Position numbers and translations under genes: made by a program | Shown: positions 3,662 through 15,839 of the stretch, piece after piece | How positions within the stretch are numbered: position 1 is the first letter of the stretch | Layout: every line of letters begins with the position of its first letter | Notes under the pieces: generated by a model | Told to the model about the DNA's origin: nothing | The model's database searches: none | The model's input: the letters and a program-made list of their open reading frames with translations, nothing else | Virus record (IMG/VR): IMGVR_UViG_2609459854_000004 | Span: 1-16,896 of that record | Reading direction: 5' to 3' (one strand) | Length of the DNA stretch: 16,896 nucleotides | DNA from: a virus | Taxonomy: Duplodnaviria > Heunggongvirae > Uroviricota > Caudoviricetes

Positions 3662-4240
3662 ATGGATTTCAGAATGAGTGAACAATCACGGACCATAAAA
3701 ATTTATAACCTGCTGGCCGGAACTAATGAATTTATTGGGGAAGGTGATGCATACATTCCACCTCATACAGGTCTGCCTGCAAACAGTACCGATATTGCAC
3801 CACCAGATATTCCGGCAGGCTTCGTGGCTGTTTTCAACAGTGATGAGGCATCGTGGCATCTCGTTGAAGACCATCGGGGTAAAACGGTTTATGACGTGGC
3901 ATCAGGGGACGCGTTATTTATTTCTGAACTCGGTCCGTTACCGGAAAATGTTACCTGGTTGTCGCCGGATGGAGAGTGTCAGAAGTGGAACGGCACATCC
4001 TGGGTGAAAGATGCAGAAGCAGAAAAACTGTTTCGGGTACGGGAGGCAGAAGAAACAAAAAACAGCCTGATGCAGGTAGCCAGTGAGCATATTGCGCCAC
4101 TTCAGGATGCCGTAGATTTGGATATTGCGACGGAGGAAGAGGCATCGTTACTGGCTGCATGGAAGACATATAGGGTATTGTTGAATCGTGTTGATACAAC
4201 AGTAGCAGCGGATGTTGAGTGGCCAGTCGCCCCGCAATAA
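3662..4240 (+). CDS. tfa: Tail fibre assembly protein (lambda Tfa-like chaperone)
   Basis: Translation from ATG 3662 ([54 protein letters not shown]…[33 protein letters not shown]…) is near-identical to lambda Tfa as I recall it. GAGG sits 5 nt upstream. The ORF track begins at an upstream in-frame GTG (3656). Confidence 0.9.
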
Positions 4241-11960: not shown

Positions 11961-12428
11961 TTATTGTTTAATGGCGTTTTCTATCCATGTCGCCAAATTG
12001 TTCTTGATATCGCTATAAGCGTCGTTAAAGTTAGGTTCATATACGAGTGGTTTAATTACTCGATCGCCTCGCTTAAATGTAAATTGGTCGAAAGGATTCG
12101 GTCCTTTTGTCCCATAGCCGTTACGAGGGCATTTCAGTCGATGAATATAAATACCCACCACAGCCTTACCCTCTTTCCAGGCTCTTTCGATCTCATACTT
12201 GACCCATGGGCGATTAGCCGTTTGACTCCCGATCAGTACTACTAAGCAGGATTTGCCATTTAAGCTCTGATTAATCCAATTCTTCACGCCCTGCTCAGTT
12301 CGTTTAATTTGTTCCCAAGTATTTGGGCTAACCGGTTCATCCCCCTCCAGCACTCCCATGTTACGAATCTGCTGTACCCGCATAACATCGTTATCAAAGT
12401 GAAAGCTGTAAAATACCTTACGTTTCAT
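11961..12428 (-). CDS. thsB: Thoeris ThsB-like TIR-domain protein (DUF1863-type TIR)
   Basis: 155 aa; MKRKVFYSFHFDNDV…LVVLIGSQTANRPWVKYEIERAW…KGPNPFDQF matches the ThsB/TIR-like signature (KxVFxSFHxxD…LIGSQT…W…YEI). Strong AGGAGG 6 nt upstream of the ATG; 2-bp gap to the thsA stop, so likely co-translated. AT-rich island. Confidence 0.7.
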   Translation of the reverse strand: MKRKVFYSFHFDNDVMRVQQIRNMGVLEGDEPVSPNTWEQIKRTEQGVKNWINQSLNGKSCLVVLIGSQTANRPWVKYEIERAWKEGKAVVGIYIHRLKCPRNGYGTKGPNPFDQFTFKRGDRVIKPLVYEPNFNDAYSDIKNNLATWIENAIKQ

Positions 12429-12430
12429 AT

Positions 12431-13876
12431 CTAACCTCCTAGTTTCTTTAAAATTTCTAAAACTTTCATTTCGATATTTGCCCGATTAGCAGAGAGATCT
12501 GCAAGCTGAGCAACTTCCTTTTCCAACCAAGGGTACCGGACAAAATGTTTACTTGGATCCGTCAGCATCTCGTCAGCTAGTTCCTTGGCCATATAACCAG
12601 TGACGCCAAGTGGAAGCACGACAACCCCTGTTTCCTGAGCAATTTGAAACTCCCTTCGGACCCCATCAGCATTAACGATTCGACCATCATGGAGTTTATT
12701 CCCAAAAAGGAATATAGCGATTCCAGAAAGACCAATCATACGCTGCCGATATTCGTCCCATAGCTCGCTCAGGGCTTTATCGTTTGATGAGTGTTGAGGG
12801 AATGGCCGCATGATAAGTTGCTCTTCTGAGTACTTATCAGGCTTAGAATAAATGGCTTCAAGAGCTCCGTTGATGACCGCACTACCAATACCCCATCCAA
12901 ACCCATTGACAACTCGATAGCCATTCTTCACCAAAGATGACGAAAGTATGTGTACAAAGTTTAGTGCTTCCTGTTTGTCCCAAGCGCCATACTCTTCTGC
13001 ACTACCAGATATAAATATGGTCTTCTTGAGGAAGCGACTCTCAATCTCTTTCAATATAAGTGGAATATCATCGTACTCGTTTACTAATACAGCCTGAATG
13101 CCAAAACGGAGCAAATCGCGAATATGATGTTCTTGCCTACGCTGCCTATACATAGCGCCAGCTTCATCTTCATTTCCTTGCGGCAGAGAGGGTTCCTTAC
13201 GAAGAAAGCAGTAGTGTCTACGACGATGCTTCTCCGGAACATGCAATCGGCTCAATATGTAATCAAGATTAGGATCAGTAAAACTGAAGCCAATAAATAA
13301 GAATGTCTTAGAAATCAAATCTCCACTCAATGCTGTAACAAACCCCTCATGGGTCTTGTAGTACTGCTCATACTGAGCTTTATAAAGTATGGCGTCACCT
13401 GGCGAGCTAACATCACCATGCATTTTGTAAACAACAGCATCTCGTTTAGGACGAGTGGAAATAAGATCATCGGTTCTGCGTTTAATATCTGCGACACGGT
13501 AGTTTTCTTTGAGACTATCTTCAATCAAAGTGTCATAGTTGGTTGTCCAATAAGTTCTAATGGGTAGTCTAGCAAGGATTTTATGGGCTTCGGAAGGTTC
13601 CGCTTGCTCCGAGAATTCCTCTAGGATTTTTCTAGCTAAACCAGTTGAGCTGTTGTTCTTGTTGACATGGTATTGTGCAACCGAAATTAAGTCGTGCTCT
13701 AGCTCAACAGAAAGGCCTAATTCTTCAGCAATTTCACGCAGCAGTTCACTCCAATTAACGAAGCCGCTGGTTCTAGATAGGCCCGCACCAGCAAAAACGG
13801 CGGCAACCCCTTCTTCGAGATCCTTCACATAAGTCCTGATAAAAGCTTCAACTTCAGCCGAAAACTGAACACTCAT
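12431..13876 (-). CDS. thsA: Thoeris ThsA-like protein, N-terminal SIR2 (NADase) domain plus C-terminal SLOG/STALD sensor domain
   Basis: SIR2 motifs AAVFAGAGLSRTSGF…, …RTYWTTNYDTLIE… (catalytic Asn) and …AVVYKMHGDV… (catalytic His), then …TFLFIGFSFTDPNLDYIL…. C-terminal SLOG-like motifs …IFISGSAEEYGAW…NGFGWGIGSAVINGALE…IFLFGN…. Preferred start is ATG 13876 (MSVQF…); the ORF track gives TTG at 13897. Confidence 0.7.
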   Translation of the reverse strand: MSVQFSAEVEAFIRTYVKDLEEGVAAVFAGAGLSRTSGFVNWSELLREIAEELGLSVELEHDLISVAQYHVNKNNSSTGLARKILEEFSEQAEPSEAHKILARLPIRTYWTTNYDTLIEDSLKENYRVADIKRRTDDLISTRPKRDAVVYKMHGDVSSPGDAILYKAQYEQYYKTHEGFVTALSGDLISKTFLFIGFSFTDPNLDYILSRLHVPEKHRRRHYCFLRKEPSLPQGNEDEAGAMYRQRRQEHHIRDLLRFGIQAVLVNEYDDIPLILKEIESRFLKKTIFISGSAEEYGAWDKQEALNFVHILSSSLVKNGYRVVNGFGWGIGSAVINGALEAIYSKPDKYSEEQLIMRPFPQHSSNDKALSELWDEYRQRMIGLSGIAIFLFGNKLHDGRIVNADGVRREFQIAQETGVVVLPLGVTGYMAKELADEMLTDPSKHFVRYPWLEKEVAQLADLSANRANIEMKVLEILKKLGG

Positions 13877-14289
13877 ATTTTTAGACAATCCGGTCAAAAG
13901 ATAGACATAAACTTCTTACCACAAACTAACCTTTGTAGTTCTATACACCGCTTTTACGCTGTGCTTTAGTATCCAAATGGATTCATTACTACTGGGGTCA
14001 GTACCTATTGAGTAAGTAGGTAGAAAGCCATTACTAGCTCCAATACTCGCTAAGTATATGAGGCAATTAGGTGGTATTTTCAAGTTCACCGAGCCTGATA
14101 CAGGGCCATAGGAATAAATAGTCACATTTTCGTAGCTCTTTTCCACTATTGGTAGTTAAATAATTACTTTCACTTTATCGCTCAAAGCGTACTCTCAGGT
14201 TTATTGCTTTTTAGTTACATAAACCGTCAGTTAGAGTTTGTACCTGTACAACCTAGAATAACGGTAGCAACACGTTTGGGGAGGTCGCA

Positions 14290-14550: not shown

Positions 14551-14638
14551 CAAGCAGAATTGCCGGAGTAGCAAAAAAGCGATAGATTACGCGCGGGTGC
14601 CTTTCGGCTGATGGTCGGAGGGAATACCCGAAGGCCAG

Positions 14639-14875
14639 ATGTGGAAAGGCCCCGGAAAAACATCTCTGTTTAACCGAGGCCCTAACCGCATTACCTTGAC
14701 AAGTGAAAGGTTAGCGCCTCTCCGGAAAAGGAGCAAGTGCTATGTCGCAAAAATCGCTTACGGCCATCACGTTCTGCGTGACGGCAATCCTCATCATCTG
14801 GATGCTGCACGGTTCGCTGTGCGAAATACGGATGAGCTTCTGGGGAGCGGAGTTTGCGGCGTTCTTACAGTGTAA
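14639..14875 (+). CDS. mok: mok-like overlapping reading frame (modulator of killing) of a hok/sok-type locus
   Basis: 78-aa ORF in a different frame that almost completely overlaps the hok-like ORF and ends 7 nt before its stop. This is the arrangement characteristic of mok/hok. No independent sequence support. Confidence 0.35.
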   Translation: MWKGPGKTSLFNRGPNRITLTSERLAPLRKRSKCYVAKIAYGHHVLRDGNPHHLDAARFAVRNTDELLGSGVCGVLTV

Positions 14876-14882
14876 GCAGTAA
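14742..14882 (+). CDS. hok: Hok/Gef-family type I toxin (small membrane peptide)
   Basis: 46-aa ORF MSQKSLTAITFCVTAILIIWMLHGSLCEIRMSFWGAEFAAFLQCKQ: single TM helix followed by the Hok/Gef signature SLCEIR…E.AAF. Not in the supplied ORF track because it is under 60 aa. Confidence 0.7.
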   Translation: MSQKSLTAITFCVTAILIIWMLHGSLCEIRMSFWGAEFAAFLQCKQ

Positions 14883-14891
14883 GGAAACCGC

Positions 14892-14913
14892 GACGGGGGA
14901 GCAATCCCCCGTC
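14892..14913 (+). other. Strong stem-loop in hok mRNA 3' region (GACGGGGGA-gcaa-TCCCCCGTC)
   Basis: Perfect 9-bp GC-rich stem with 4-nt loop immediately after the hok stop, consistent with the folded 3' elements of hok-family mRNAs. Confidence 0.5.
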
Positions 14914-14968
14914 AATCGGTTGCCAAGGTAAGGTCGATAAGGCACCCTATCTCATAGAGATGAATAAC

Positions 14969-15005
14969 AAACCCGCAGCGTAAAAACTGCGGGGTTTCTT
15001 TTTGG
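14969..15005 (+). terminator. Rho-independent terminator of the hok transcript
   Basis: CCCGCAG-cgtaaaaa-CTGCGGG stem followed by GTTTCTTTTT. Confidence 0.6.
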
Positions 15006-15071
15006 AACTCTCACTAGCTAGTGTACCGTTAGCGGCACATAATGCTCGCACAACAAACCAGTTAAAAGAGA

Positions 15072-15353
15072 TTACTCAGCATTCTCCTGCTTCCATTGCC
15101 GGATCATTTCATCGGTAACATCACTCTCATAACATACCACGTCATACCCTCCAGTACGGCTATATGCACTGCGTCCACCACATCTACTACCATTCCTTGC
15201 ATGATTATAAGGACACGCACAATTGCCTGGATAAGATTCAATGGATTCTTTAATTATTTCTTTCTTGATCTGAGCATCTGACTTTCCTTTTGCTGCATAC
15301 CCACTAAAAGATACCAAACAAAGGCAGATTGCCATTAATAAACCACATCGCAT
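15072..15353 (-). CDS. Small secreted Cys-containing protein of unknown function (predicted signal peptide)
   Basis: From ATG 15353: MRCGLLMAICLCLVSFSGYAAKG… has a typical Sec signal peptide (AxA-like YAA cleavage motif), then a 70-aa mature region with 4 Cys (…GNCACPYNHARNGSRCGG…VVCY…). The ORF-track N-terminal extension to 15467 precedes the signal peptide and is less plausible. AT-rich islet. Confidence 0.4.
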   Translation of the reverse strand: MRCGLLMAICLCLVSFSGYAAKGKSDAQIKKEIIKESIESYPGNCACPYNHARNGSRCGGRSAYSRTGGYDVVCYESDVTDEMIRQWKQENAE

Positions 15354-15812
15354 ACCGATACACTCTATTACTAACCAATCATAGCCCACATCATAAAATC
15401 GAGATGAGGAGTACAACACCTTTAACAAGAAGGTGCCATCACGATAATATGTCGTGCAATTCATCAAAAAAAAGATCTATATCAAAGAGATAGAGTTATT
15501 ATCAGTGCTGCAGACATCAGCATTCGAGGCAGCAGAAAAACAGTTAATCTAACGAATTTGTATTTTCTCAGGATGTTGTCAGATTAAAAAAGATAGATTA
15601 GCGCAGACACCTTTTGGCGGGTGGTAGGAGGAAAAATGAAGTTGAGTGGGAAGATCCCAGAAAAAATTTTGATTTAACCAAGGCCCTAGTTCAACATGCG
15701 AAATACAGATTAGTTGCAGGAGAGTTCTGCTTCACGCTTAGAGCTTCAACAGACGTGCACTATCATTGTTTCTGCATATCGCCACATCATCGCCACTTTA
15801 CCGCCATTGCAC

Positions 15813-15839
15813 AAAAAAAAAAAAAAAAAAAACCCCCCC
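15813..15839. repeat. Homopolymeric tract A20 C7 (T20-preceded-by-G7 on the tRNA strand)
   Basis: Directly visible run of 20 A followed by 7 C on the + strand, about 55 bp beyond the 3' end of tRNA-Leu. Confidence 0.9.

What the first reader, a model, noticed from the sequence alone, without database searches (positions are those of the whole stretch)
14600..15005. hok/mok-type type I toxin-antitoxin locus immediately beyond ogr
A 46-aa Hok/Gef-like toxin ORF (absent from the ORF track, being under 60 aa) is almost fully overlapped by a 78-aa ORF in another frame, the mok arrangement. It is followed by a 9-bp GC stem-loop and a rho-independent terminator, as in hok-family mRNAs. The C-terminal half of the toxin (RMSFWGAEFAAFLQCKQ) diverges from canonical Hok. 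The antisense Sok-like RNA expected opposite the mok leader (roughly 14600-14700, - strand) could not be placed confidently; a perfect TTGACA at 14693-14698 on the + strand is noted. The locus may stabilise the prophage or the islet beside the tRNA cluster.
Basis: partly seen in the sequence, partly recalled or inferred. Interest (0 to 1): 0.45.

Follow-up and report, generated by a model that had tools for sequence, protein, structure and literature searches.

The report
Known prophage Hok/Sok toxin–antitoxin module
This is a real but ordinary hok/sok-type toxin–antitoxin cassette carried at the end of a P2-like prophage in E. coli; its 46-residue toxin is already annotated, catalogued and reported toxic, and the only unusual point is that the overlapping "mok" reading frame is not conserved in its relatives.

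Summary
A 46-aa ORF (14742-14882, +) matches Pfam HOK_GEF above threshold. It is followed by a 9-bp GC hairpin and an intrinsic terminator.

The window is E. coli chromosome, 100% identical to strain H3. The locus lies just after ogr, at the right end of a P2-like (P88/Xuanwuvirus-type) prophage inserted downstream of leuZ. RefSeq annotates the gene as "Hok/Gef family protein". About 1,700 of 5,426 complete E. coli genomes hold a match covering at least 80% of the locus.

The exact peptide is entry 72_1621 in a 2026 preprint cataloguing Hok. It was among 45 homologues tested there and is not one of the three reported non-toxic.

Comparison of 26 homologous loci supports the hok-mRNA design:
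- a 5'-3' fold-back (fbi 14933-14947 with 14595-14608);
- an alternative 5' hairpin;
- a Sok-target hairpin;
- a minus-strand Sok-like RNA (about 14700 to 14640) whose promoter aligns with the experimentally defined sokW promoter.

Three corrections:
- TTGACA is at 14696-14701, is not conserved, and is not a promoter.
- The C-terminus is conserved and HokA-like, not a frameshift remnant.
- The 78-aa "mok" ORF is not conserved: 22 of 45 distinct homologues have no leader ORF.

Verdict: already known, low interest.

The parts
14560..14588 (+). Putative hok promoter: -35 TTGCCG (14560-14565), 17-nt spacer, -10 TAGATT (14583-14588), 7 nt before the conserved 5' end
   Evidence: Read from the sequence. 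The -10 (TAGATT/TAGAAT) and its distance to GGGTGCC are conserved in homologues. hokW has the same layout (TAGAAT, 6 nt, GGGTGC). The -35 is inferred only, and the simple promoter scan did not call it.
14595..15003 (+). Predicted full-length hok mRNA, about 405 nt
   Evidence: Sequence conservation begins sharply at GCGGGTGCC. The Rfam sok/hok-leader model starts at 14595. The terminator is at 14972-14993 plus a T-run. The fold has z = -8.9. Transcript ends are inferred, not measured.
14595..14608 (+). 5' element (tac-like) that pairs either with the 3' fbi box or with an internal partner at 14644-14653
   Evidence: The fbi pairing is 95% paired, with 3 pairs changed on both sides (helix 1). 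The alternative 5' hairpin is 94.6% paired, with 2 pairs changed on both sides at the same 5' nucleotides (helix 1).
14639..14875 (+).
   Evidence: Present in the window. The ATG at 14639 is AAA in the Salmonella and Klebsiella homologues. TTG 14696 is TAA or TAG in P88 and many others. 22 of 45 distinct units have no leader ORF. No Pfam or NCBIfam hit.
14676..14720 (+). Sok-target hairpin (stems 14676-14680/14716-14720 and 14682-14687/14709-14714; about 21-nt variable loop)
   Evidence: 93.7% of cells paired, with 2 pairs changed on both sides (helix 4). It occupies the same position as the hairpin that holds the leader ATG in hokW and in plasmid hok.
14708..14736 (-). Sok-like antisense promoter: -35 TTGCTC (14736-14731), 17-nt spacer, -10 TAACCT (14713-14708)
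   Evidence: It aligns column for column with the hokW locus (TAACCT) and IncFII hok (TATCCT). In hokW, the 'pro-less' mutagenesis primers replace TAGGTTA, the complement of this box, and that construct lost antitoxin activity.
14640..14700 (-). Predicted Sok-like antitoxin RNA, about 60 nt: a roughly 10-nt single-stranded 5' tail, then a terminator hairpin (14682-14647) and a U-rich tail
   Evidence: The fold is -28.3 kcal/mol, z = -4.85. The hairpin is 92.5% paired on the minus strand. An invariant U.G pair (22/22) is a C.A mismatch on the + strand (26/26), so the minus strand is the one under selection. Both ends are inferred.
14730..14733 (+). hok Shine-Dalgarno GGAG, 8 nt before the ATG, inside a predicted sequestering hairpin (14714-14717/14737-14740 and 14720-14723/14730-14733)
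   Evidence: Sequence. The MFE folds of both the full-length and the 3'-shortened RNA keep it paired. The outer helix is 100% paired in 26 homologues, with one-sided changes only.
14742..14882 (+). hok toxin gene, 46 aa (Hok cluster 72; HokA-like, with hard-coded Cys27 and Cys44)
   Evidence: Pfam HOK_GEF 29.9 bits against a cut-off of 22. RefSeq WP_000078916.1 'Hok/Gef family protein'. The 46-aa length is conserved across E. coli, Shigella, Salmonella and Klebsiella. The identical peptide is entry 72_1621, which was cloned and tested.
14886..14921 (+). GC-rich hairpin just after the stop codon
   Evidence: 98.7% paired, with 5 of 9 pairs showing changes on both sides (helices 5-6).
14933..14947 (+). 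fbi (fold-back inhibition) box: GTCG..AAGGCACCC, complementary to 14595-14608
   Evidence: AAGGCACCC is the exact complement of GGGTGCCTT. The MFE fold pairs the two ends. Nearly invariant, with compensatory changes in the extension.
14972..15003 (+). Intrinsic terminator of hok mRNA
   Evidence: Terminator scan. 5 of 7 pairs show changes on both sides in the homologues that keep it. Several E. coli variants replace this segment just after fbi.

Best explanation
Region 14560-15003 is a complete hok/sok-family type I toxin-antitoxin cassette. It is terminal cargo of a P2-like prophage integrated downstream of leuZ.

Proposed mechanism:
1. A weak promoter makes a stable mRNA of about 405 nt. Its first 14 nt pair with the fbi box near the 3' end, which keeps the RNA closed to translation and to antisense binding.
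2. Slow 3' trimming removes fbi. The 5' end then refolds and the Sok-target hairpin forms.
3. A short-lived antisense RNA of about 60 nt is made from the opposite strand, from about 14700 to 14640. It binds the target loop through its free 5' tail. This blocks expression and probably triggers RNase III cleavage.
4. When Sok synthesis stops, the remaining hok mRNA is translated. This could follow prophage loss, a transcription shut-off by an infecting phage, or prophage induction.
5. The 46-aa Hok inserts into the inner membrane and kills or lyses the cell.

Shown here: family membership of the peptide, and conservation with covariation of the RNA elements on both strands.

Shown elsewhere: toxicity of the identical peptide (preprint), and the function of the homologous sokW promoter.

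Inferred: transcript ends, 3' processing, how Sok blocks translation (apparently without a conserved Mok leader), and the biological role.
For: - Peptide: Pfam HOK_GEF above cut-off. 43% identical to HokA and 39% to R1 Hok over the core.
- Conservation: the 46-aa length and C-terminus are conserved in 30 sequences from four genera.
- Existing annotation: 100% identical DNA in E. coli H3 is annotated Hok/Gef. The same locus is in phage P88 and other Peduoviridae.
- Toxicity: the identical peptide, 72_1621, was cloned. It is not among the 3 of 45 tested homologues reported non-toxic.
- Leader RNA: the Rfam hok-leader model hits at E 1.9e-9. hokW scores 113.5 bits and plasmid hok 87.2 bits on the same model.
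- mRNA structure: across 26 loci, 94.3% of cells are paired and 16 pairs have changes on both sides. 0 of 500 shuffles reach this, and slid controls give 35-49% paired. The alternative 5' hairpin covaries at the same 5' nucleotides.
- Fold-back: the MFE fold pairs the 5' end with fbi, z = -8.9.
- Antisense RNA: the promoter aligns with sokW and plasmid sok. The terminator hairpin is valid only on the minus strand. Sok-like fold z = -4.85.
- Context: gpD-ogr-hok at a prophage end recurs in Salmonella.
Against: - No transcript data exist for this locus. Both promoters are weak matches that the consensus scan did not call.
- The Rfam score is below the gathering threshold (47.6 against 59).
- The Mok leader ORF, required for Hok translation in R1, is not conserved here. 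The step 'Sok blocks translation' therefore has no demonstrated route.
- MFE folds keep the hok ribosome-binding site paired even in the 3'-shortened RNA. They do not reproduce the target hairpin.
- The toxicity evidence comes from over-expression of the coding sequence alone, in a preprint.
- Some chromosomal hok loci are reported not to mediate post-segregational killing.
Confidence: 0.85

Rival explanations
1. It is a canonical hok/mok/sok locus. The 78-aa ORF, or a shorter version starting at TTG 14696 in the target-hairpin loop, would be a functional Mok. Its translation would open the hok ribosome-binding site, and Sok would act by blocking Mok initiation.
For: - The ORF is open from 14639 to 14875 in this window.
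- TTG 14696 lies in the loop of the Sok-target hairpin, where hokW and plasmid hok have their leader ATG.
- 23 of 45 distinct units have some canonical-start ORF that reads through the hok SD.
- In R1, leader translation up to the hok SD is mandatory.
Against: - No start position is shared across the subfamily.
- The ATG at 14639 is absent from all the Salmonella and Klebsiella units.
- TTG 14696 is TAA or TAG in P88 and many close E. coli relatives.
- 22 of 45 units have no ATG/GTG/TTG leader ORF in any frame.
- No Shine-Dalgarno lies at a usable distance from TTG 14696; the conserved GAGG is 17 nt upstream.
Confidence: 0.2
2. It is an inactive relic: a Hok coding sequence that is toxic only when over-expressed artificially. 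Its native regulation would be decayed, as reported for several E. coli K-12 chromosomal hok loci.
For: - Chromosomal hokA, hokB and hokC were reported unable to mediate post-segregational killing.
- K-12 hokA is interrupted by IS150.
- The leader ORF is not conserved.
- The Rfam score is sub-threshold.
Against: - Every other regulatory element is intact and shows compensatory substitutions across genera.
- The peptide length and C-terminus are conserved.
- The locus is carried by isolated temperate phages and is amplified in tandem in Salmonella.
Confidence: 0.1
3. This is the same module, but its main role is not prophage stabilisation. It would act either as abortive-infection defence against other phages, or as an aid to lysis and phage release on induction, as reported for hokW-sokW.
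For: - hokW-sokW doubled Sp5 phage release after mitomycin C.
- R1 hok/sok reduces T4 plating, as cited.
- The neighbouring cargo slot of this prophage holds a Thoeris defence system.
Against: - The preprint found no enrichment of hok next to defence systems.
- Nothing in the sequence distinguishes between these roles.
Confidence: 0.4

Closest known systems
Hok cluster 72 (entries 72_1621 and 72_1589) in Escalera-Maurer et al., bioRxiv 10.1101/2025.08.07.668861
   Same: The window's peptide is identical to 72_1621. It is listed as a high-abundance cluster, was cloned under an arabinose promoter, and is not among the three tested homologues reported non-toxic.
   Different: That study analysed coding sequences only. 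It explicitly left Mok, Sok and the mRNA structure aside. The RNA anatomy given here is not in the parts of that paper I read.
hokW-sokW of Stx2 prophage Sp5 / 933W (Takada et al. 2021, PMC8621323)
   Same: - Both are prophage-borne.
- The mRNA 5' end is the same (GGGTGC...).
- The Sok -10 box is the same (TAACCT), in the same place relative to the target hairpin.
- The layout is the same: GC hairpin, then a GCACCC box complementary to the 5' end.
   Different: - HokW is 51 aa and HokD-like, with a YESEK-type C-terminus.
- It has an ATG-initiated 70-aa leader ORF in frame with hokW.
- Its leader scores 113.5 bits on Rfam sok, against 47.6 here.
- Stx2 phages also carry a separate 46-aa gene of the present type, at about 81% nucleotide identity.
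hok/mok/sok (parB) of plasmid R1 and IncF plasmids
   Same: The overall design is shared: fbi fold-back, 5' alternative pairing, a target hairpin, a Sok promoter overlapping the hok SD region (TTGCGC-17-TATCCT against TTGCTC-17-TAACCT), a GC hairpin and a terminator.
   Different: - The toxin is 52 aa, only 39% identical over 31 residues.
- Mok translation is essential in R1.
- It is plasmid-borne and has a proven post-segregational killing role.
HokA (E. coli chromosomal hokA)
   Same: It is the closest named toxin: 43% identity, an MxQK N-terminus, WM..SLCE, and AAFLxCK with a hard-coded second cysteine. It is also the best NCBIfam hit.
   Different: It is not an equivalog (34 bits against a cut-off of 89). 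It is 4 residues longer and lies at a different chromosomal site. The K-12 copy's leader is cut by IS150, so the leaders could not be compared.

Membership tests
Hok/Gef toxin family (Pfam PF01848) | Peptide matches the family profile above the curated cut-off | tested here: met
   29.9 bits against a gathering score of 22, E 4.1e-7, covering residues 7-44.
Hok/Gef toxin family (Pfam PF01848) | Short peptide of about 50 aa with an N-terminal hydrophobic helix, the conserved LCE motif, and a C-terminal periplasmic tail carrying a second Cys or Tyr | tested here: met
   SLCE at residues 25-28. Cys27 and Cys44 are invariant in 30 homologues. These correspond to logo positions C31 and C48 as described.
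Hok/Gef toxin family (Pfam PF01848) | Toxic when expressed | not testable with these tools
   A preprint tested the identical peptide, 72_1621. 42 of 45 homologues were toxic, and the three exceptions are other entries.
HokA equivalog (NCBIfam NF007290) | Score above the equivalog cut-off | tested here: not met
   34 bits against a cut-off of 89. It is HokA-like but not HokA.
hok/sok RNA locus (Rfam RF01794 and the Gerdes-type hok mRNA design) | Leader matches the Rfam covariance model at gathering score | tested here: inconclusive
   47.6 bits against 59, E 1.9e-9, full-length model match on the + strand. Relatives in the same subfamily score 38-57 bits; hokW scores 113.5 and plasmid hok 87.2.
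hok/sok RNA locus (Rfam RF01794 and the Gerdes-type hok mRNA design) | fbi: the 3'-end box pairs with the extreme 5' end of the mRNA | tested here: met
   A 9-nt exact complement plus a 4-bp extension. Predicted in the MFE fold. 95% paired, with 3 compensatory pairs.
hok/sok RNA locus (Rfam RF01794 and the Gerdes-type hok mRNA design) | The same 5' nucleotides have an alternative internal partner (tac-type refolding; coupled covariation) | tested here: met
   The 5' hairpin 14595-14605 with 14644-14653 is 94.6% paired. Columns 36-37 covary with both partners. The MFE fold of the shortened RNA chose a different local 5' hairpin.
hok/sok RNA locus (Rfam RF01794 and the Gerdes-type hok mRNA design) | Cis-antisense Sok gene with its own promoter and terminator opposite the leader | tested here: met
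   Sequence level only. The promoter boxes align with sokW and plasmid sok. The terminator hairpin is selected on the minus strand. Whether it is transcribed was not tested.
hok/mok/sok (canonical three-gene locus) | Conserved Mok leader ORF that starts in the Sok-target region and reads through the hok ribosome-binding site | tested here: not met
   An ORF is present in this window, but no start is conserved. 22 of 45 distinct units lack any ATG/GTG/TTG leader ORF. Positive controls hokW and IncFII hok both have one.

The most novel reading that the evidence does not exclude
The 46-aa 'cluster 72' hok loci may work without any Mok leader peptide. Sok would then repress hok by a different route. 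One possibility is that it blocks a ribosome stand-by site in the roughly 21-nt loop of the target hairpin. Another is that it frees the 3' arm (GCGCCUCUCC) to lock the hok Shine-Dalgarno in the conserved GCGC...GGAG...GYGC hairpin, in either case with or without RNase III cleavage. This would be a mok-independent branch of the textbook hok/mok/sok paradigm.
Probability: 0.35. Interest if true: 0.4.

Novelty: already known. Interest (0 to 1): 0.15.

Why it matters
This matters little as a discovery. The gene is annotated in RefSeq and in phage records. The exact peptide is in a published catalogue of Hok toxins and was tested there. Prophage-borne hok/sok has an experimental precedent in hokW-sokW.

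Three things are useful:
- The Mok reading frame is dispensable at the sequence level in this cluster. If confirmed, textbook mok-coupled translation would not be universal in the hok family.
- The cassette sits beside a Thoeris system in the cargo region of a P2-like prophage. That makes it a convenient natural context for testing whether prophage hok loci stabilise the prophage, defend against other phages, or tune lysis.

Tried and rejected
It was rerun with an alignment.
- The genome-contig scan gave only 6 loci. Three of them carried implausible organism titles (Planococcaceae, Vagococcus, Xanthomonas) for E. coli-like DNA, which I took to be probable contamination. I used L004 only in the first alignments and L005 in the unit counts; neither went into the structure counts.
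- The viral-contig scan returned 80 loci, all with the identical protein. They were useful for context but not for covariation. Diversity came instead from the look-up of encoding contigs on Salmonella and Klebsiella homologues.
- The consensus promoter scan found no promoter on either strand. The family's promoters match at only 7-8 of 12 positions, so I placed them by homology.
- The + strand TTGACA as a promoter was rejected. It is mis-located by 3 nt, has no -10 partner 17 nt downstream, and is replaced by TTAAGC, TAGACA or TCAACA in relatives.
- 'Frameshifted remnant of a longer hok' was rejected on the conserved length and C-terminus.
- The MFE fold of a 3'-shortened mRNA reproduced neither the Rfam-type 5' stem nor the target hairpin, and it kept the SD paired. 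Single-sequence folding therefore could not show the activation step.
- The K-12 hokA leader could not serve as a comparator, because IS150 sits 32 nt upstream of hokA.
- A literature search for mok-less hok systems returned nothing relevant.
- The PADLOC library has no model that hits the Hok peptide.

Full report
**What is in the sequence**

The 46-aa ORF (14742-14882, +) and the 78-aa ORF that overlaps it in another frame (14639-14875) are both present. Downstream lie a 9-bp GC hairpin (14892-14900 with 14905-14913) and an intrinsic terminator (stem 14972-14993, then a T-run).

The 46-aa product matches Pfam HOK_GEF at 29.9 bits, above the cut-off of 22. Its best NCBIfam hit is HokA, but far below the equivalog cut-off (34 against 89). 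The 78-aa product matches nothing.

**Where the window comes from**

The 451-nt query is 100% identical to E. coli strain H3. A match covering at least 80% of it occurs in 1,703 of 5,426 complete E. coli genomes. RefSeq annotates the gene as 'Hok/Gef family protein'.

The neighbours, in order, are a gpD-like tail gene, a TIR gene, a SIR2 gene, ogr, hok, a small hypothetical gene, then leuZ-cysT-glyW and pgsA. Homology to K-12 resumes at 15826, at the end of the leuZ 3' trailer. Everything to the left of that point is therefore inserted DNA.

The same locus is present at 93-98% identity in isolated P2-like phages (P88, P884B11, PhiR44_2 and 500465-2; Peduoviridae). There it is labelled 'MokW-like host killing'. 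It is present at about 81% identity in many Stx2 phages. Many IMG/VR prophage contigs of about 35 kb end with this gene. In Salmonella, gpD-ogr-hok again sits at the end of P2-like prophages, sometimes as two or three tandem copies.

**Is the peptide a decayed Hok?**

No. Thirty homologues from E. coli, Shigella, Salmonella and Klebsiella oxytoca are all 46-47 aa long. The C-terminal block GAEFAAFLQCKQ is almost invariant in them. The peptide is 43% identical to HokA across its full length and 39% identical to R1 Hok over the core. The 'divergent' C-terminus is the signature of a HokA-like subfamily in which both cysteines are hard-coded.

**Already catalogued and tested**

A 2026 preprint on Hok diversity lists this exact peptide as 72_1621, in 60%-identity cluster 72, which it calls a high-abundance cluster. 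The coding sequence was cloned under an arabinose promoter. The text reports that 42 of 45 tested homologues were toxic. It names the three exceptions, and none of them is 72_1621. [quoted passage not shown] It also states that Mok, Sok and mRNA structure were not analysed.

**RNA anatomy, plus strand**

I aligned 26 homologous units at 68-95% nucleotide identity. Conservation starts abruptly at GCGGGTGCC (14593), seven bases after a conserved TAGATT/TAGAAT box. hokW has the same layout.

- *fbi box.* Between the GC hairpin and the terminator lies AAGGCACCC (14939-14947). This is the exact complement of the first nine transcript bases, GGGTGCCTT (14595-14603). A 4-bp extension (14605-14608 with 14933-14936) continues the pairing.
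- *Fold.* The MFE fold of the 404-nt RNA pairs the two ends, with z = -8.9.
- *Pair counts.* I counted a structure made of the fbi helix, two leader hairpins, the Sok-target hairpin, the GC hairpin and the terminator. 94.3% of cells form standard pairs, and 16 pairs have changes on both sides. No shuffle in 500 reaches this, and slid controls give 35-49% paired.
- *Alternative 5' pairing.* The same 5' nucleotides also pair with 14644-14653, and they covary with that partner too. From my own knowledge, this coupled covariation was described for the hok family by Gultyaev, Franch and Gerdes in 1997. I did not read that paper here.
- *Rfam.* The 'sok' model (RF01794) is in fact oriented with the hok leader. 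It matches 14595-14755 at 47.6 bits (E 1.9e-9), below its gathering score of 59. That is why the default scan missed it. On the same model hokW scores 113.5 bits, an IncFII plasmid hok 87.2, and other members of this 46-aa subfamily 38-57.

I aligned the reverse strand with the hokW and plasmid hok loci. A -35 box (TTGCTC, 14736-14731), a 17-nt spacer and a -10 box (TAACCT, 14713-14708) fall in the same columns as the corresponding boxes of the other two loci.

In the hokW study, the 'promoter-less' construct was made with primers that replace TAGGTTA, the complement of this same box. That construct lost antitoxin activity, and sokW supplied in trans partly restored it.

A transcript starting near 14700 would have a free 5' tail of about 10 nt. 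A stable hairpin (14682-14647) and a U-rich stretch would follow (-28.3 kcal/mol, z = -4.85). The hairpin is 92.5% paired on the minus strand, including a U.G pair present in 22 of 22 sequences. On the plus strand that same position is a C.A mismatch in 26 of 26 sequences. Selection therefore acts on the minus-strand RNA.

The segment complementary to the Sok 5' tail is the most variable part of the locus, and it differs between tandem copies.

**The mok question**

In R1, translation of the Mok leader up to the hok ribosome-binding site is required for Hok synthesis. As positive controls, hokW and an IncFII hok variant each have an ATG in the target hairpin that opens a frame running through the hok start. 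In these two cases it is in frame with hok.

In the present subfamily no such frame is conserved:
- The window's ATG 14639 is AAA in all Salmonella and Klebsiella units.
- The window's TTG 14696 is TAA or TAG in P88 and many close E. coli relatives.
- The hok frame itself is closed by the TAG inside the conserved GGTTAG.
- Overall, 22 of 45 distinct units have no ATG/GTG/TTG leader ORF in any frame that reaches the hok Shine-Dalgarno. The 23 that do have one use at least five different start positions.

The 78-aa ORF is therefore probably incidental.

The predicted Sok duplex ends about 30 nt upstream of the hok Shine-Dalgarno, so direct occlusion of the ribosome-binding site is unlikely. The GGAG lies in a conserved small hairpin. 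How Sok controls translation here is thus not explained by the textbook model. Blocking of a stand-by site, Sok-induced refolding, or RNase III-triggered decay are my inferences, not results.

**Function**

The last of these is reported for hokW-sokW, which doubled phage release after mitomycin C. The adjacent cargo slot of this prophage carries a type I Thoeris system (ThsA 673 bits, ThsB 234 bits). The preprint, however, found no general enrichment of hok next to defence systems.

**Verdict**

It is also already known: annotated, catalogued and tested. Three details of the interpretation are wrong or unsupported: the mok arrangement, the TTGACA, and the 'divergent' C-terminus. The one point of modest novelty is the apparent absence of a conserved Mok leader in this Hok cluster. 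A search of the paper library for mok-less hok systems returned nothing relevant.

Noticed in passing
window 11961-13897 (- strand): A type I Thoeris anti-phage system (ThsB TIR protein, 155 aa; ThsA SIR2/STALD protein, 488 aa) is inserted between the gpD-like tail gene and ogr. Phage P88 has nothing at that spot, so this is a variable cargo slot of the prophage.
   Followed up: partly
L101 505-1641; L095 1501-2131; L096 1501-2135 (Salmonella enterica): There are two or three tandem copies of the whole hok unit (period about 490-500 nt), directly after ogr in L101 (no ogr was listed in L095 or L096). The loop that pairs with the Sok 5' tail differs between copies, as if to avoid cross-talk.
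   Followed up: partly
L103 815-1027 (phage VT2-Sakai hokW) and L104 444-659 (IncFII plasmid hok): In both loci the leader ATG is in frame with hok, giving an N-terminally extended Hok of 70-71 aa rather than a separate-frame Mok. This probably explains the 'MokW-like' label that phage records give the 46-aa gene.
   Followed up: partly
window 14957 onward; L013, L081, L011, L003, L100, L024: Several E. coli and phage variants of the locus lose homology a few bases after the fbi box and carry unrelated 3' sequence in place of the terminator. The mobile unit therefore seems to end right after fbi.
   Followed up: no
window 15004-15825 (ORF 15072-15467, - strand): An 822-nt stretch lies between the hok terminator and the point where K-12 homology resumes. 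It holds a small cysteine-rich ORF with a hydrophobic N-terminus, which RefSeq annotates as a 282-nt hypothetical gene. It has no significant Pfam hit (only a weak sub-threshold Sclerostin match) and no PADLOC hit, and P88 has different DNA here.
   Followed up: partly
window 4005-4203 (+ strand): There is a full-length match to Rfam IS009 (RF02111; 191 bits against a gathering score of 117) in the upstream part of the window. I did not examine it.
   Followed up: no
L004, L005, L008 (genome-contig hits): E. coli-type hok loci appear in assemblies titled Planococcaceae, Vagococcus and Xanthomonas pisi. These are most likely contaminating enterobacterial contigs in those assemblies.
   Followed up: no
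L091 1795-1992 (- strand): In Salmonella the P2-like prophage that carries hok abuts a strong Rfam STnc540 match (171.6 bits), next to a Bac_DNA_binding (HU/IHF-family) gene. The attachment site there differs from the leuZ site in this window.
   Followed up: no
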